Below are positions 9,323-60,816 of a stretch of 64,000 nt of DNA, piece after piece; position 1 is the first letter of the stretch, and every line of letters starts with the position of its first letter. Under the pieces are notes generated by a model. It had not been told where the DNA came from, searched no databases, and saw only the letters and a list, made by a program, of their open reading frames with translations. A program made the translations under genes and the position numbers. The stretch comes from Escherichia coli (lineage in GTDB: Bacteria > Pseudomonadota > Gammaproteobacteria > Enterobacterales > Enterobacteriaceae), in assembly GCF_011045215.1 (NCBI RefSeq), contig NZ_CP049201.1; one strand, written 5' to 3'.

Positions 9323-9407
9323 GCCGGATGCGGTGCGAGCGCCTTATCCGGCCTGGGGAATGAGCGATTTGTAGGCATGATAAGACGCGTTAGCGTCGCA
9401 TCAGGCG
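9323..9407. repeat. REP/BIME element (two REP palindromes) between convergent alkA and dgcE
   Basis: gccggatgcggtgcgagcgccttatccggc and gtaggcatgataagacgcgttagcgtcgcatcaggc, typical E. coli REP sequences. Confidence 0.85.
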
Positions 9408-13057: not shown

Positions 13058-13699
13058 ATGACTGATCAGTCTCATCAGTGCGTCATTATCGGTATCGCTG
13101 GCGCATCGGCTTCCGGCAAGAGTCTTATTGCCAGTACCCTTTATCGTGAATTGCGTGAGCAAGTCGGTGATGAACACATCGGCGTAATTCCCGAAGACTG
13201 CTATTACAAAGATCAAAGCCATCTGTCGATGGAAGAACGCGTTAAGACCAACTACGACCATCCCAGCGCGATGGATCATAGTCTGCTGCTTGAGCATTTA
13301 CAAGCGTTGAAACGCGGCTCGGCAATTGACCTGCCGGTTTACAGCTATGTTGAACATACGCGTATGAAAGAAACGGTGACGGTTGAGCCGAAGAAGGTCA
13401 TCATTCTCGAAGGCATTTTGTTGCTGACGGATGCGCGTTTGCGTGACGAACTTAACTTCTCCATTTTCGTTGATACCCCGCTGGATATCTGCCTGATGCG
13501 CCGCATCAAGCGTGACGTTAACGAGCGTGGGCGTTCAATGGATTCCGTGATGGCGCAATATCAAAAAACCGTGCGCCCGATGTTCCTGCAATTCATTGAG
13601 CCTTCTAAACAATATGCGGACATTATCGTGCCGCGCGGCGGGAAAAACCGCATTGCGATCGATATATTGAAAGCGAAAATAAGTCAGTTCTTTGAATAA
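13058..13699 (+). CDS. udk: Uridine/cytidine kinase
   Basis: Track ORF 12995..13699; start set at ATG 13058 ([23 protein letters not shown]-loop), 213 aa as in K-12 Udk. Confidence 0.93.
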
Positions 13700-20353: not shown

Positions 20354-22516
20354 ATGACAGAAAAAGTAAAACAACATGCCGCTCCGGTAACGGGCAGTGA
20401 TGAAATCGATATTGGTCGCCTGGTCGGCACCGTCATTGAAGCGCGCTGGTGGGTGATTGGCATCACCGCCGTATTTGCCCTCTGTGCCGTGGTTTACACT
20501 TTCTTCGCCACGCCGATTTATAGTGCCGACGCACTGGTACAAATCGAGCAAAACAGCGGCAATTCGTTAGTGCAGGACATTGGTTCGGCATTAGCCAACA
20601 AACCGCCTGCATCGGACGCCGAGATCCAGTTGATTCGTTCGCGTCTGGTGCTTGGTAAAACGGTGGACGATCTCGACCTCGATATTGCGGTGAGCAAAAA
20701 CACGTTCCCGATTTTCGGTGCGGGCTGGGATCGTTTGATGGGACGTCAGAACGAGACGGTGAAAGTGACCACCTTTAACCGCCCGAAAGAGATGGCGGAT
20801 CAGGTGTTTACGCTTAATGTGCTGGACGATAAAAACTACACCCTGAGCAGTGATGGCGGCTTTAGCGCCCGTGGGCAAGCGGGCCAGATGCTGAAAAAAG
20901 AAGGCGTCACGCTGATGGTTGAAGCCATTCACGCCCGCCCGGGCAGTGAGTTTACCGTCACCAAATACTCCACGTTGGGGATGATCAACCAACTGCAAAA
21001 CAGCCTGACGGTAACGGAGAACGGCAAAGACGCAGGCGTACTGAGCCTGACTTATACCGGTGAAGATCGCGAACAGATCCGCGACATTCTTAACAGCATC
21101 GCCCGTAACTATCAGGAACAAAATATTGAGCGCAAATCGGCGGAAGCGTCGAAAAGCCTCGCTTTCCTCGCGCAACAGTTACCGGAAGTACGTAGCCGCC
21201 TTGATGTTGCCGAAAACAAACTGAATGCCTTCCGTCAGGATAAAGATTCTGTTGATCTGCCGCTGGAAGCGAAAGCGGTGCTCGATTCGATGGTGAACAT
21301 CGACGCCCAGTTGAACGAACTGACCTTTAAAGAGGCGGAAATCTCCAAGCTGTACACCAAAGTTCACCCGGCGTACCGCACGCTGCTGGAGAAACGTCAG
21401 GCGCTGGAAGACGAAAAAGCCAAACTTAACGGTCGCGTAACGGCGATGCCGAAAACCCAGCAGGAGATTGTCCGTCTGACCCGCGATGTCGAGTCTGGTC
21501 AGCAGGTCTATATGCAACTGCTGAATAAAGAGCAGGAGCTGAAAATCACCGAAGCCAGCACCGTCGGCGATGTGCGCATTGTTGACCCGGCAATCACTCA
21601 GCCTGGTGTGCTAAAACCGAAGAAAGGGCTGATTATCCTTGGGGCGATTATTCTTGGCCTGATGCTCTCTATCGTGGGTGTGCTGCTGCGCTCGTTGTTT
21701 AATCGCGGCATCGAAAGCCCGCAGGTGCTGGAAGAACACGGTATCAGCGTCTATGCCAGCATCCCGTTGTCGGAATGGCAGAAAGCGCGCGATAGCGTCA
21801 AAACCATCAAAGGGATTAAACGCTATAAACAGAGCCAGCTACTGGCGGTGGGGAATCCAACCGATCTGGCGATTGAAGCCATCCGCAGTCTGCGTACCAG
21901 TCTGCACTTCGCGATGATGCAGGCGCAGAACAATGTGTTGATGATGACCGGGGTTAGCCCGTCAATCGGTAAAACCTTTGTCTGCGCCAACCTGGCGGCG
22001 GTGATCAGCCAGACCAATAAACGCGTGTTGTTGATCGACTGCGATATGCGCAAAGGCTACACCCACGAGCTGTTGGGCACCAATAACGTCAATGGCCTGT
22101 CGGAAATTCTGATTGGTCAGGGCGATATTACTACCGCAGCTAAACCGACCTCTATTGCCAAATTTGACCTGATCCCGCGCGGTCAGGTGCCGCCAAATCC
22201 TTCTGAACTGTTGATGAGCGAACGCTTTGCCGAACTGGTGAACTGGGCGAGTAAAAACTATGACCTGGTGTTGATTGATACGCCGCCGATTCTGGCAGTG
22301 ACCGATGCGGCAATTGTTGGTCGTCATGTCGGAACCACATTAATGGTGGCGCGTTATGCGGTCAACACATTGAAAGAAGTGGAAACCAGTCTGAGCCGCT
22401 TTGAGCAAAACGGTATTCCGGTGAAAGGGGTGATTCTGAACTCCATCTTCCGCCGCGCCAGCGCGTATCAGGATTATGGCTATTACGAATACGAATATAA
22501 GTCGGATGCGAAATAA
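20354..22516 (+). CDS. wzc: Tyrosine autokinase / polysaccharide co-polymerase Wzc
   Basis: Track ORF 20318..22516; start set at ATG 20354 (MTEKVKQHAAP), 720 aa; Walker A GVSPSIGKT; C-terminal Tyr-rich tail YGYYEYEYKSD. Confidence 0.93.
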   Translation: MTEKVKQHAAPVTGSDEIDIGRLVGTVIEARWWVIGITAVFALCAVVYTFFATPIYSADALVQIEQNSGNSLVQDIGSALANKPPASDAEIQLIRSRLVLGKTVDDLDLDIAVSKNTFPIFGAGWDRLMGRQNETVKVTTFNRPKEMADQVFTLNVLDDKNYTLSSDGGFSARGQAGQMLKKEGVTLMVEAIHARPGSEFTVTKYSTLGMINQLQNSLTVTENGKDAGVLSLTYTGEDREQIRDILNSIARNYQEQNIERKSAEASKSLAFLAQQLPEVRSRLDVAENKLNAFRQDKDSVDLPLEAKAVLDSMVNIDAQLNELTFKEAEISKLYTKVHPAYRTLLEKRQALEDEKAKLNGRVTAMPKTQQEIVRLTRDVESGQQVYMQLLNKEQELKITEASTVGDVRIVDPAITQPGVLKPKKGLIILGAIILGLMLSIVGVLLRSLFNRGIESPQVLEEHGISVYASIPLSEWQKARDSVKTIKGIKRYKQSQLLAVGNPTDLAIEAIRSLRTSLHFAMMQAQNNVLMMTGVSPSIGKTFVCANLAAVISQTNKRVLLIDCDMRKGYTHELLGTNNVNGLSEILIGQGDITTAAKPTSIAKFDLIPRGQVPPNPSELLMSERFAELVNWASKNYDLVLIDTPPILAVTDAAIVGRHVGTTLMVARYAVNTLKEVETSLSRFEQNGIPVKGVILNSIFRRASAYQDYGYYEYEYKSDAK

Positions 22517-22540
22517 CGACGCCTGCATTCGCACCGCCCC

Positions 22541-22577
22541 GTAGGCCGGATAAGGCGTTCACGCCGCATCCGGCAAG
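22541..22577. repeat. REP element between wzc and wcaA
   Basis: gtaggccggataaggcgttcacgccgcatccggcaag. Confidence 0.8.
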
Positions 22578-32924: not shown

Positions 32925-33112
<188 letters not shown>

Positions 33113-37530: not shown

Positions 37531-37716
37531 GCCGGATGCGGCGTAAAACGCCTTATCCATCCTACGGTTCTGTGCTCGGGACCTGTAGGCCTGATAAGAC
37601 GCGTCAGCGTCGCATCAGGCACTGAATGCCGGATGCGGCGTGAACGCCTTATCCGGCCTACGGTTCTGTGCTCGGGTCTTGTAGGCCTGATAAGACGCGT
37701 CAGCGTCGCATCAGGC
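37531..37716. repeat. BIME cluster (multiple REP palindromes) between wzxC and wcaK
   Basis: Repeated gccggatgcggcgtgaacgccttatccggcctacggttctgtgctcggg and gtaggcctgataagacgcgtcagcgtcgcatcaggc units. Confidence 0.85.
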
Positions 37717-54085: not shown

Positions 54086-55492
54086 ATGTCAAAGCAACAG
54101 ATTGGCGTCGTCGGTATGGCAGTGATGGGGCGCAACCTTGCGCTCAACATCGAAAGCCGTGGTTATACCGTCTCTATTTTCAACCGTTCCCGTGAGAAGA
54201 CGGAAGAAGTGATTGCCGAAAATCCAGGCAAGAAATTGGTTCCTTACTTTACGGTAAAAGAGTTTGTTGAATCTCTGGAAACGCCTCGTCGCATCCTGTT
54301 AATGGTGAAAGCAGGTGCAGGCACGGATGCTGCTATTGATTCTCTCAAGCCATACCTCGATAAAGGTGACATCATCATTGATGGTGGTAACACCTTCTTC
54401 CAGGACACCATTCGTCGTAACCGTGAGCTGTCTGCAGAAGGTTTTAACTTTATCGGTACTGGTGTTTCCGGTGGTGAAGAAGGTGCACTGAAAGGACCTT
54501 CCATCATGCCTGGTGGCCAGAAAGAAGCCTATGAACTGGTTGCACCGATCCTGACCAAAATCGCCGCAGTGGCTGAAGATGGGGAGCCATGTGTTACCTA
54601 TATTGGTGCCGATGGTGCTGGTCACTATGTGAAGATGGTTCACAACGGTATTGAATACGGAGATATGCAACTGATTGCTGAAGCCTATTCTCTGCTAAAA
54701 GGTGGCCTGAACCTCACCAACGAAGAACTGGCGCAGACCTTTACCGAGTGGAATAACGGTGAACTGAGCAGCTACCTGATCGACATCACCAAAGATATCT
54801 TCACCAAAAAAGATGAAGACGGTAACTACCTGGTTGATGTGATTCTGGATGAAGCTGCAAACAAAGGTACGGGTAAATGGACCAGCCAGAGTGCGCTGGA
54901 TCTCGGCGAACCGCTGTCGCTGATTACCGAGTCTGTGTTTGCACGTTATATCTCTTCTCTGAAAGATCAGCGCGTTGCCGCATCTAAAGTTCTCTCTGGC
55001 CCGCAAGCGCAGCCAGCAGGCGACAAAGGTGAGTTCATCGAAAAAGTTCGCCGTGCGTTGTATCTGGGCAAAATCGTTTCTTACGCCCAGGGCTTCTCTC
55101 AGCTGCGTGCGGCGTCTGAAGAGTACAACTGGGATCTGAACTACGGCGAAATCGCGAAGATTTTCCGTGCTGGCTGCATCATCCGTGCGCAGTTCCTGCA
55201 GAAAATCACCGATGCTTATACCGAAAATCCGCAGATCGCTAACTTGCTGTTGGCTCCATACTTCAAGCAAATTGCCGATGACTATCAGCAGGCGCTGCGT
55301 GATGTTGTTGCTTATGCAGTACAGAACGGTATCCCGGTTCCCACCTTCGCCGCTGCGGTTGCCTATTATGACAGCTACCGTGCCGCTGTTCTGCCTGCGA
55401 ACCTGATCCAGGCACAGCGTGACTATTTCGGTGCACATACTTATAAGCGCATTGATAAAGAAGGTGTGTTCCATACTGAATGGCTGGATTAA
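54086..55492 (+). CDS. gnd: 6-phosphogluconate dehydrogenase (decarboxylating)
   Basis: 468 aa; [15 protein letters not shown] Rossmann motif; matches Gnd. Confidence 0.96.
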
Positions 55493-55517
55493 TCTTATTT
55501 AACTAACAATAAATTGA

Positions 55518-55549
55518 GGCCTGGCGTATATTGCGCCGGGCTTTTTTTT
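55518..55549 (+). terminator. Rho-independent terminator downstream of gnd
   Basis: GC-rich hairpin ggcctggcg...cgccgggc followed by an 8-T run. Confidence 0.8.
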
Positions 55550-55730: not shown

Positions 55731-56906
<1,176 letters not shown>

Positions 56907-56916
56907 CATCATGTTA

Positions 56917-56945
56917 TCAGGGCGATTTTCGCCCTGATTCTCTTA
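56917..56945 (+). terminator. Terminator-like hairpin downstream of ugd
   Basis: Perfect inverted repeat tcagggcga-ttt-tcgccctga followed by T-rich sequence. Confidence 0.6.
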
Positions 56946-57049
56946 TGTTCCCTTTGTAATAATTCATTTTTTTTATCATTTATCCTATAGCATTCATGGC
57001 GATTATCGCTAAACTATGGCGACTTAAAATTATTTCGTCCGTTAGGGTA

Positions 57050-58030
57050 ATGATGAGAGTAGAAAATAATAATGTTTCTGGGCAAAACCATGACCCGGAA
57101 CAGATTGATTTGATTGATTTACTGGTGCAGTTGTGGCGTGGCAAGATGACAATTATCATCTCTGTCATTGTGGCTATTGCCCTGGCTATAGGGTATCTGG
57201 CCGTTGCCAAAGAAAAGTGGACTTCCACAGCTATCGTTACTCAACCTGATGTGGGGCAAATCGCTGGTTATAACAATGCCATAAATGTGATTTATGGTTC
57301 GGCAGCGCCGAAAGTGTCTGAGATCCAGTCGATGTTAATTGGTCGTTTCAGCACGACATTTTCTGCATTAGCAGAAACGCTGGATAATCAGGAAGAACCT
57401 GAAAAACTGACCATTGAGCCTACCGTTAAAAATCAGTCATTACCTTTAGCGGTTTCTTATGTGGGTGAAACACCTGAAGGTGCGCAGAAACAGCTGGCGA
57501 AGTATATCCAGCAAGTTGACGACCAGGTAAATGAAGAACTGGAACAAGACCTGAAAGACAACATCGCGCTGCAAATGAAAAACTTGCAGGATTCTCTGAA
57601 GACCCAGGAAGTGGTTGCGCAGGAGCAGAAAGATCTGCGTATCCGTCAGATTCAGGAAGCGTTGCAGTATGCGAATCAGGCGCAGGTGACAAAGCCGCAG
57701 ATTCAGCAGACACAGGACGTAACCCAAGATACTATGTTCCTTTTGGGGAGCGAAGCGCTGGAGTCGATGATTAAGCACGAGGCGACTCGTCCGTTGGTGT
57801 TCTCATCAAACTACTATCAGACTCGTCAAAACCTGCTGGATATCGACAATCTTGACGTTGATAAACTTGATATTCATGCTTACCGCTATGTAATGAAACC
57901 GACGTTACCTATTCGTCGCGATAGCCCGAAAAAGGCAATTACCTTGATTCTGGCGGTGCTGCTGGGCGGCATGGTTGGCGCGGGGATTGTGCTGGGGCGT
58001 AACGCTCTGCGTAATTACAACGCGAAGTAA
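57050..58030 (+). CDS. wzzB: O-antigen chain-length determinant Wzz (polysaccharide co-polymerase)
   Basis: Track ORF 56996..58030; start set at ATG 57050 (MMRVENNNVSGQNHDPEQIDLIDL) after taggg RBS; two TM segments flanking a coiled-coil periplasmic region. Confidence 0.9.
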   Translation: MMRVENNNVSGQNHDPEQIDLIDLLVQLWRGKMTIIISVIVAIALAIGYLAVAKEKWTSTAIVTQPDVGQIAGYNNAINVIYGSAAPKVSEIQSMLIGRFSTTFSALAETLDNQEEPEKLTIEPTVKNQSLPLAVSYVGETPEGAQKQLAKYIQQVDDQVNEELEQDLKDNIALQMKNLQDSLKTQEVVAQEQKDLRIRQIQEALQYANQAQVTKPQIQQTQDVTQDTMFLLGSEALESMIKHEATRPLVFSSNYYQTRQNLLDIDNLDVDKLDIHAYRYVMKPTLPIRRDSPKKAITLILAVLLGGMVGAGIVLGRNALRNYNAK

Positions 58031-58052
58031 TCTTTTCGGTTTTAAAGAAAAA

Positions 58053-58085
58053 GGGCAGGGTGGTGACACCTTGCCCGTTTTTTTT
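58053..58085. terminator. Bidirectional rho-independent terminator between convergent wzz and hisI
   Basis: Hairpin gggcagggtggtgacaccttgccc flanked by T8 on the plus strand and by a T-rich tract on the minus-strand reading. Confidence 0.7.
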
Positions 58086-58126
58086 GCCGGATGCGATGTT
58101 GTTGTCGCATCCGCTTACCCCGCAAC

Positions 58127-58731
58127 TCACTGATGCCGTTTGCGCAGGTTCTCAATCACCGTTGTTAAATCCAGATCCTGATCCTGCAACAGCACCAACA
58201 GGTGATACACCAAGTCAGATGCCTCATTCTTCAGCTCAAAGCGGTCATGTACTGTCGCTGCCAGTGCGGTTTCCACGCCTTCTTCGCCCACTTTCTGCGC
58301 AATGCGTTTGGTGCCGCTGGCATACAGTTTGGCGGTATAGGAGGTTTCCGGATCGGCAGATTTACGTTCGGCGAGCAATTGTTCCAGTTGATACAGGAAC
58401 AGCCACTGGTGAGCGGTATCGCCGAAGCAGCTGCTGGTGCCTTTGTGGCAGGTTGGTCCGATAGGATTCGCCAGTACCAGTAGCGTGTCGTTGTCGCAGT
58501 CCGGCGCAATATTTACTACGTTGAGGAAATTGCCCGACGTTTCGCCTTTGGTCCACAGTCGCTGTTTAGTGCGCGAGAAGAAGGTGACTTTGCCGCTTTC
58601 GATGGTTTTGTCTAAGGCTTCCGGGTTCATATAGCCCAGCATTAACACTTCGCCGGATACCGCGTGTTGCACAATCACCGGCATAAGTCCGTCGGTTTTT
58701 TCCCAGTCCAGTTCGCGACGTTGTTGTTCTG

Positions 58732-58738
<7 letters not shown>
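58127..58738 (-). CDS. hisI: Bifunctional phosphoribosyl-AMP cyclohydrolase / phosphoribosyl-ATP pyrophosphatase
   Basis: 203 aa, matches HisIE. Confidence 0.95.

Positions 58739-60816
<2,078 letters not shown>

What the first reader, a model, noticed from the sequence alone, without database searches (positions are those of the whole stretch)
58053..58112. Shared bidirectional terminator for the O-antigen/wzz transcript and the his operon
Seen in sequence: one GC-rich hairpin is flanked by T-runs on both strands, sitting between wzz (plus strand) and hisI (minus strand), followed by a second palindrome ggatgcgatgttgttgtcgcatcc. It probably insulates the two convergent operons.
Basis: seen in the sequence. 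Interest (0 to 1): 0.2.

Follow-up and report, generated by a model that had tools for sequence, protein, structure and literature searches.

The report
Known wzzB/his bidirectional transcription terminator
This is the ordinary, already described two-way transcription stop signal shared by the convergent wzzB gene and histidine operon of E. coli, followed by a REP-like repeat hairpin that is not a terminator.

Summary
A 10-bp GC-rich hairpin (58053-58076) has T8 on the + strand (58078-58085) and TTTTTCTTT on the - strand (58052-58044). It lies in the 96-nt gap between wzzB (+) and hisIE (-) of an E. coli chromosome. The hairpin is base-for-base identical in E. coli K-12 (its T-run is T7, not T8). 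There, published 3'-end mapping puts the wzzB 3' end in the T-run and the hisI 3' end in the opposite T-run. The bidirectional-terminator reading is therefore supported, and it is already known: the Salmonella his terminator was published as "convergently functional" in 1985.

Three corrections apply.
- The + strand transcript is wzzB, or possibly ugd-wzzB. It is not the O-antigen operon, because gnd has its own strong terminator at 55516-55544.
- The second palindrome (58088-58113) has no U-tract on either strand. It starts with the exact REP head GCCGGATGCG. It marks a site where 1214 of 5426 E. coli genomes carry a two-REP BIME. It is a REP-like element in the his 3' UTR, not a terminator.
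- Insulation is not complete. K-12 data show antisense RNA running through hisI that ends at a Rho-dependent site.

One curiosity: the 10-nt loop of the palindrome is exactly inverted in this strain, an allele found in 17 of 5426 genomes. Interest is low.

The parts
57053..58030 (+). wzzB CDS (O-antigen chain-length determinant). An alternative ATG lies 3 nt upstream at 57050, as in the K-12 annotation.
   Evidence: ORF; annotated wzzB in 100%-identical strain ECCHD184 and others; K-12 annotation
58044..58052 (-). U-tract of the his-direction terminator (TTTTTCTTT on the - strand). It doubles as the A-tract upstream of the wzzB-direction hairpin. The expected his mRNA 3' end is about 58046.
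   Evidence: Sequence; K-12 hisI primary 3' end at 2097305 (+), the 7th base of this tract
58053..58076 (.). Shared terminator stem-loop GGGCAGGGTG-GTGA-CACCTTGCCC, used on both strands.
   Evidence: Invariant in the 7 aligned short-form E. coli alleles; the diverged alleles L004-L006 carry changes in the stem and loop. The core is present in 4592 of 5426 genomes.
58078..58085 (+). T8 U-tract of the wzzB-direction terminator. The expected wzzB 3' end is about 58081-58085. Its length varies from T7 to T9 among strains.
   Evidence: K-12 wzzB 3' ends at 2097267-2097270 (-); alignment
58086..58118 (.). REP-like palindrome in the his 3' UTR. It consists of the REP head GCCGGATGCG (58086-58095), the 8-bp stem 58088-58095/58106-58113, the 10-nt loop 58096-58105 (inverted relative to most E. 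coli), and the tail CTTAC. It is not a terminator. It marks the site of a BIME presence/absence polymorphism.
   Evidence: BIME-containing alleles; allele counts; alignment
58127..58738 (-). hisIE CDS, the last gene of the his operon.
   Evidence: ORF; annotation
55516..55544 (+). gnd intrinsic terminator (context only). It separates the O-antigen cluster and gnd from ugd-wzzB.
   Evidence: K-12 gnd primary 3' end at 2099801-2099805

Best explanation
The hairpin at 58053-58076 is a canonical bidirectional intrinsic (Rho-independent) terminator.

RNA polymerase coming from wzzB transcribes the A-tract, the stem-loop and then U8. The -19 kcal/mol hairpin forms behind a weak rU:dA hybrid, and the transcript is released about 4-8 nt into the U-tract (window ~58081-58085). 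RNA polymerase coming from hisIE transcribes the complementary stem-loop and then UUUUUCUUU, and is released at about 58046. That stem is -14 kcal/mol and has one A.C mismatch. The two mRNAs therefore overlap by about 39 nt, covering the whole stem. The wzzB direction is predicted to be the stronger one.

The terminal hairpin probably also protects both mRNAs from 3' exonucleases. This last point is inferred.

The adjacent palindrome (58088-58113) is a REP-family hairpin, the residue of a polymorphic BIME. It is transcribed as part of the his 3' UTR, and only on read-through from wzzB. It does not terminate transcription. At most it adds a second exonuclease barrier for his mRNA (inferred, low confidence).

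Polymerases that escape the terminator in the wzzB direction make untranslated antisense RNA across hisI. In K-12 this RNA is ended further on, partly by Rho.
For: Anatomy and energetics on both strands.

Experimental 3' ends in K-12, which has the identical hairpin:
- TRS Supplementary Data 2 and 3 give wzzB primary at 2097267/2097269 (-) and hisI primary at 2097305 (+).
- An independent Term-seq data set gives 2097270 (-).
- I predicted these positions from the sequence before looking them up.

The diverged E. coli alleles L003-L005 keep a stable hairpin with T-runs on both strands. L006 keeps it only in the wzzB direction (see evidence against).

Across 80 species, 13 loci have a convergent Wzz homologue after hisI. 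Of these, 12 have a predicted two-way terminator built from unrelated hairpin sequences, for example AAAAAAACCGGGCTTGCCCGGTTTTTTT in Citrobacter. Among the other loci the figure is 18 of 67. Fisher p = 1.4e-5, not corrected for phylogeny.

[quoted passage not shown] It is cited as the reference for the histidine-operon terminator cassette in PMC3148252, and for the suggestion that A/T-flanked stem-loops near convergent genes may act as bi-directional terminators in PMC1590033.

REP nature of the second palindrome:
- It starts with the exact REP head. The same motif occurs in paired opposite-strand sites, consistent with BIMEs, elsewhere in the window: 18 matches against 6.2 expected.
- Full REP pairs occupy this exact site in L002-L004 and L091.
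- The REP part of that insertion matches a median of 4 places per genome.
Against: - 3'-end mapping cannot separate true termination from exonucleolytic trimming back to a stable hairpin.
- The his-direction signal is weaker: a mismatch in the stem and an interrupted U-tract.
- No termination efficiency was measured for this strain.
- Antisense RNA through hisI in K-12 shows that the wzzB-direction stop is leaky, or that another start exists.
- In L006, where hisIE is reduced to a 126-bp pseudogene, the his-direction hairpin is not clearly better than shuffled sequence (z -1.5, 15 of 200 shuffles fold as well).
- The Salmonella sequence itself was not retrieved, and the 1985 paper could not be read.
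- The second palindrome is single-copy in its exact form and lacks the canonical REP tail. 'REP-like' is therefore a resemblance plus positional evidence, not proven membership.
Confidence: 0.9

Rival explanations
1. The hairpin is a true terminator only for wzzB. The his operon is ended by another route, such as Rho or polymerase collision, and the mapped hisI 3' end is a decay intermediate trimmed back to the stable hairpin.
For: The - strand hairpin is weaker (-13.9 against -19.3 kcal/mol, with an A.C mismatch) and its U-tract is interrupted as UUUUUCUUU. 3'-end mapping cannot tell termination from trimming.
Against: The hisI 3' end lies 7 nt into the U-tract, as expected for intrinsic termination. 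By its title, the his terminator studied in Salmonella is Rho-independent and functional in both orientations (references). Symmetric A-tract/hairpin/T-tract architecture recurs in 12 of 13 species with hisI and wzz convergent.
Confidence: 0.06
2. Termination here depends mainly on head-on and trailing RNA polymerase collisions between the convergent units. This is the SEnd-seq 'bidirectional terminator' model, in which the stem-loop only positions the collision.
For: The gene pair is convergent and the 3' ends overlap by about 39 nt. The model and its evidence are described in the bioRxiv preprint 10.1101/2022.10.23.513370.
Against: That class was described as not resembling intrinsic terminators. 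This site has textbook U-tracts on both strands. In LB, his expression is about 15-fold lower than wzzB expression (TRS Supplementary Data 4), so collisions would be rare for wzzB polymerases, yet the wzzB 3' end is sharp.
Confidence: 0.1
3. The second palindrome (58088-58113) is a functional second terminator or insulator that backs up the first hairpin.
For: It forms a stable hairpin on both strands, -15 to -17 kcal/mol. It lies directly after the wzzB U-tract.
Against: It has no U-tract on either strand. No 3' end is mapped at it in K-12. It is absent from the other genera examined, where the hairpin follows hisI by 0-19 nt instead of 50 nt. Its loop and surroundings vary freely within E. 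coli, through loop inversion and BIME presence or absence.
Confidence: 0.04

Closest known systems
his operon terminator of Salmonella typhimurium (Carlomagno, Riccio and Bruni 1985, J Bacteriol 163:362, 'Convergently functional, Rho-independent terminator')
   Same: It sits at the end of the his operon. By its title it is Rho-independent and works in both orientations. It has been reused as a strong terminator cassette (PMC3148252).
   Different: The Salmonella sequence was not retrieved here and the paper was not readable. The related genera that were retrieved (Citrobacter, Pseudescherichia, Enterobacter) use a different hairpin, CCGGGC..GCCCGG, and lack the REP-like palindrome. The E. coli stem is therefore probably not sequence-homologous, only positionally and architecturally equivalent.
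E. coli K-12 wzzB/hisI terminator as mapped by TRS, Term-seq and RNAtag-seq (PMC10687069; bioRxiv 10.1101/2020.07.18.207399)
   Same: Identical 24-nt hairpin and A-tract, and the same flanking genes. The 3' ends lie in both U-tracts.
   Different: K-12 has T7 where the window has T8. The K-12 palindrome loop is in the opposite orientation (GCAACAATAT against ATGTTGTTGT on the wzz strand).
Overlapping bidirectional terminators of convergent gene pairs (SEnd-seq, Ju et al. 2019; collision model of Wang et al., bioRxiv 2022)
   Same: A convergent pair, a single stem-loop between the genes, and overlapping 3' ends.
   Different: That class was reported as lacking intrinsic-terminator features. This one has canonical U-tracts on both sides and needs no collision model.
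REP / BIME elements of E. coli
   Same: The second palindrome starts with the exact REP head GCCGGATGCG and is extragenic. In 1214 genomes it sits in the alternating-orientation position of a third unit next to a two-REP BIME.
   Different: It lacks the canonical ...CTTATCCGGCCTAC tail, having CGCATCCGCTTAC instead. Its stem is a perfect 8-bp palindrome. It is single-copy in its exact form. No REP is annotated at this position in the K-12 record.

Membership tests
Intrinsic (Rho-independent) terminator | GC-rich stem-loop immediately followed by a U-rich tract, downstream of a stop codon | tested here: met
   On the + strand: a 10-bp stem (7 G-C), then G plus U8, starting 23 nt after the wzzB stop. 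On the - strand: the same stem with one A.C mismatch, then UUUUUCUUU, starting 50 nt after the hisIE stop.
Intrinsic (Rho-independent) terminator | Transcript 3' ends map within the U-tract | tested here: met
   Met from published K-12 data on the identical hairpin: wzzB at 2097267-2097270 (-) and hisI at 2097305 (+). Not measured in this strain.
Intrinsic (Rho-independent) terminator | Factor-independent release in vitro, and sensitivity to stem or U-tract mutations | not testable with these tools
   Needs a transcription assay. The title of the 1985 Salmonella paper asserts Rho-independence for the Salmonella his terminator.
Bidirectional terminator | One hairpin flanked by an A-tract and a T-tract, lying between convergent genes and used by both | tested here: met
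   The architecture recurs in 12 of 13 species with hisI and wzz convergent.
REP / BIME (for the second palindrome) | Conserved REP head and tail around an imperfect palindrome of about 35 nt | tested here: inconclusive
   The head GCCGGATGCG is exact. The tail is CGCATCCGCTTAC rather than CTTATCCGGCCTAC. One diverged allele (L005) has ...CATCCGCCTAC.
REP / BIME (for the second palindrome) | Many copies per genome | tested here: not met
   The exact palindrome with its flanks occurs once per genome. Only the neighbouring REP of the BIME-containing allele is multi-copy, with a median of 4 megablast places per genome.
Rfam RNA families (sRNA or cis-regulatory element) | Match at the family's gathering score | tested here: not met
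   The best hits score 15-18 bits against gathering scores of 45-200. All are terminator-shaped chance matches.

The most novel reading that the evidence does not exclude
The exact inversion of the 10-nt loop of the REP-like palindrome could be more than a one-off mutation. This allele occurs in 17 of 5426 genomes. It could instead be a recurrent, hairpin-mediated flip, for example by template switching or arm recombination at a site where convergent transcription extrudes hairpins. The flip shifts the stability of the his 3'-UTR hairpin slightly, from -17.4 to -15.5 kcal/mol, and so could alter his mRNA decay.
Probability: 0.04. Interest if true: 0.3.

Novelty: already known. Interest (0 to 1): 0.1.

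Why it matters
It matters little beyond correct annotation. The site is a clean textbook example of a two-way intrinsic terminator, and both 3' ends are experimentally mapped in K-12. It shows that the architecture is conserved across Enterobacterales while the hairpin sequence turns over. It can also serve as a positive control for terminator predictors. The neighbouring REP-like hairpin records small-scale repeat dynamics, namely BIME gain or loss between 9-10-bp direct repeats and a loop inversion, right next to the O-antigen recombination hot spot.

Tried and rejected
- Rfam at a permissive E-value found only chance, terminator-shaped hits, so an sRNA or riboswitch reading was dropped.
- The promoter scan found no sigma-70-like site in 56500-59500. 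An antisense promoter in the gap is therefore not supported, though the scan is crude.
- The primary and review literature could not be read: Carlomagno 1985, Alifano 1996 and the EcoSal histidine chapter are not held. Several his-operon reviews that are held do not mention the terminal terminator.
- The held TERMITe supplements do not list wzzB or hisI. The Hfq/CsrA CLIP supplements are not held, so a possible Hfq-bound 3'-UTR fragment was not assessed.
- The genome-contig scan returned 80 species but no Salmonella locus, so direct sequence comparison with the 1985 terminator was not possible.
- My first hairpin finder was too strict. It was replaced by an RNAfold-based two-strand caller.
- The K-12 record annotates no repeat or regulatory feature in the gap.

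Full report
**What is there.**
The window is an E. coli chromosome segment. The region 57900-58250 is 100% identical to strain ECCHD184 and matches 4642 of 5426 complete E. coli genomes, annotated wzzB and hisIE. wzzB (+) ends at 58030 and hisIE (-) ends at 58127, leaving a 96-nt gap.

The gap contains the following elements in order:
- AAAGAAAAA at 58044-58052.
- The stem-loop GGGCAGGGTG-GTGA-CACCTTGCCC at 58053-58076.
- G plus T8, with the T-run at 58078-58085.
- GCCGGATGCG-ATGTTGTTGT-CGCATCCGC at 58086-58114.
- 12 more bases up to the hisIE stop codon.

The only omission is that the second palindrome has one more base pair on each side, making it 58088-58113.

**Is it more than chance?**
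The hairpin is the top terminator-like site in a 3-kb scan. In a 47-nt context it folds at -25.2 kcal/mol on the + strand (z -5.3) and -16.0 on the - strand (z -3.7). None of 200 dinucleotide shuffles does as well on either strand. The stem alone is -19.3 on + and -13.9 on -. The difference arises because the G.U pair on the + strand becomes an A.C mismatch on the other strand.

The 55-nt core is single-copy and present in 4592 of 5426 genomes. It is invariant across seven aligned short-form alleles, apart from a T7-T9 length polymorphism and the last base of the A-tract. Three more diverged alleles (L003-L005) still fold into a hairpin with T-runs on both strands. In L006, where hisIE is only a 126-bp pseudogene, the his-direction fold is no longer clearly better than shuffled sequence (z -1.5).

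**Experimental evidence.**
K-12 MG1655 carries the identical hairpin at 2097275-2097298. From the sequence I predicted a wzzB 3' end near 2097267-2097270 (-) and a his 3' end near 2097303-2097307 (+). The published data agree:
- TRS tables (PMC10687069, Supplementary Data 2 and 3; RNAtag-seq and Term-seq in LB and minimal medium) list a primary wzzB 3' terminus with dominant position 2097267 or 2097269 (-).
- The same tables list a primary hisI terminus at 2097305 (+).
- An independent Term-seq study (bioRxiv 10.1101/2020.07.18.207399) lists 2097270 (-) in two conditions.

Both transcripts therefore end in the U-tracts flanking one stem, and they overlap by about 39 nt. In window coordinates the ends fall at about 58081-58085 (+) and about 58046 (-).

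**Prior knowledge.**
The his-operon terminator of Salmonella was published in 1985 as a 'convergently functional, Rho-independent terminator' (Carlomagno, Riccio and Bruni). PMC3148252 cites that paper as the reference for a histidine-operon terminator cassette. PMC1590033 cites it for the suggestion that A/T-flanked stem-loops near convergent genes may act as bi-directional terminators. I could not read the paper itself. From memory, the 1988 comparison of the E. coli and Salmonella his operons by the same group also describes the terminal terminator. That statement rests on my own knowledge, not on a tool result.

**Comparative evidence.**
A HisIE-based scan of one genome per species returned 80 loci. 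Thirteen have a convergent Wzz homologue directly after hisI. An RNAfold-based two-strand caller finds one hairpin with T-rich tails on both strands in 12 of those 13, against 18 of the other 67 loci. Fisher p is 1.4e-5, but the loci are phylogenetically non-independent.

The hairpins are unrelated in sequence. Examples:
- AAAAAAACCGGGCTTGCCCGGTTTTTTT in Citrobacter werkmanii.
- AAAAAGGCCCATATGGAAATATGGGCCTTTTT in Enterobacter sp. Bisph1.
- An AGCCGCC...GGCGGCT stem in Rahnella.

The architecture is therefore conserved while the sequence turns over. In those genera the hairpin follows hisI by 0-19 nt, compared with 50 nt in E. coli. The extra 30-odd bases in E. coli are the second palindrome.

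**The second palindrome.**
It has no U-tract on either strand, and no 3' end maps to it in K-12, so it is not a terminator. Several lines of evidence tie it to REP/BIME elements:
- It begins with the exact REP head GCCGGATGCG. In the window this motif (allowing one mismatch) occurs 18 times against 6.2 expected. Most other occurrences are opposite-strand pairs 65-90 nt apart, consistent with BIMEs.
- In other E. coli genomes (L002-L004, L091) a canonical REP (TGCCGGATGCGATGCTGGCGCATCTTATCCGGCCTAC) and an inverted partner REP lie between the T-run and this palindrome.
- An allele of this kind covers at least 80% of the query in 1214 genomes. Its REP part hits a median of 4 places per genome.
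- The short form, as in K-12 and the window, occurs in at least 2577 genomes.
- The short form equals the long form minus everything between two direct copies of CCGGATGCGA. This is the signature of deletion, or of unequal exchange, between REP heads.
- E. albertii carries the long form (L008).

I therefore read the palindrome as a REP-family hairpin left at a polymorphic BIME site. It does not pass a strict REP membership test: it lacks the canonical tail and is single-copy in its exact form.

Functionally it belongs to the his 3' UTR. A role as a second 3'-exonuclease barrier is plausible by analogy with REP-stabilised mRNAs. This is established knowledge about REPs in general and was not tested here.

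**Loop inversion.**
Relative to short-form alleles such as AHM9C61I and NCCP13983 (loop ACAACAACAT on the wzz strand), the window has ATGTTGTTGT. This is the exact reverse complement, with identical flanks. The allele occurs in 17 of 5426 genomes and in the GTDB E. coli representative L007. It changes the predicted hairpin energy only slightly, from -17.4 to -15.5 kcal/mol in his sense. It looks like a hairpin-loop inversion between 8-9-bp inverted arms. It is a small mutational curiosity with no evidence of function.

**Corrections to the interpretation.**
- gnd (54086-55492) is followed by a strong terminator at 55516-55544. Its K-12 counterpart is a mapped primary 3' end.
- No 3' end between ugd and wzzB appears in the held TRS tables, and the hairpin after ugd (56916-56938) has no T-run. 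The + strand RNA ending at the shared terminator is thus wzzB or ugd-wzzB, not the O-antigen operon proper.
- Insulation is not absolute. K-12 data show an 'antisense' 3' end inside hisI at 2097075 (-). They also show a Rho-dependent termination region at about 2096632 (-), at the hisF/hisI junction, with a Rho score of 3.85. RNA in the wzzB sense therefore does cross hisI, either by read-through or from an unidentified start, and Rho cleans it up.

**Verdict.**
The feature is already known and ordinary. Confidence in the bidirectional intrinsic terminator reading is about 0.9. The main residual doubt is whether the his-direction 3' end reflects true termination or trimming back to the hairpin. 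Interest is 0.1.

Noticed in passing
window 58096-58105: The 10-nt loop of the REP-like palindrome is the exact reverse complement of the loop in most short-form E. coli alleles (ATGTTGTTGT against ACAACAACAT), with identical flanks. The flipped allele occurs in only 17 of 5426 complete genomes.
   Followed up: yes
window 58086 (insertion point); L002 470-565, L003 465-560, L004 1680-1775, L091 12-108 (approximate coordinates): There is a BIME presence/absence polymorphism. 1214 genomes carry two inverted REPs (about 75-90 bp) between the terminator T-run and the palindrome. The short form looks like a deletion between direct CCGGATGCGA repeats.
   Followed up: yes
window ~58277 and ~58720 (K-12 2097075 and 2096632, - strand): Published K-12 data list a 3' end antisense to hisI and a Rho-dependent termination region at the hisF/hisI junction, both in the wzzB sense. 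This implies read-through of the shared terminator or an unidentified antisense start.
   Followed up: partly
window ~57105-57111 (K-12 2098243, - strand): Term-seq (bioRxiv 10.1101/2020.07.18.207399, supplementary files 1 and 3) lists an ORF-internal 3' end 58 nt into wzzB in K-12. This could be premature termination or processing near the 5' end of wzzB.
   Followed up: no
window 56916-56938: A 10-bp hairpin (ATCAGGGCGATTTTCGCCCTGAT) lies right after ugd, with no T-run. No ugd 3' end appears in the held K-12 tables, so ugd and wzzB may be co-transcribed.
   Followed up: partly
window 9323-9406, 13426-13500, 22501-22574, 32944-33112, 37531-37716: Opposite-strand pairs of GCCGGATGCG/GCCTGATGCG motifs lie 65-90 nt apart. 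These are probably REP/BIME clusters in other intergenic regions of the window.
   Followed up: no
L005 1630-3195 and L006 1330-3085: In some E. coli genomes wzzB is not followed by an intact hisIE. In L005, after a diverged BIME region and a diverged hisIE-like remnant that is not annotated, come + strand genes: a hypothetical protein and a mannose-1-phosphate guanylyltransferase. L006 has a 126-bp hisIE pseudogene and then a similar set. In L006 the his-direction hairpin has decayed (z -1.5) while the wzzB direction stays strong.
   Followed up: partly
window 58078-58085: The T-run downstream of the hairpin varies from T7 to T9 among E. coli strains. This is homopolymer slippage within the wzzB U-tract.
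   Followed up: yes
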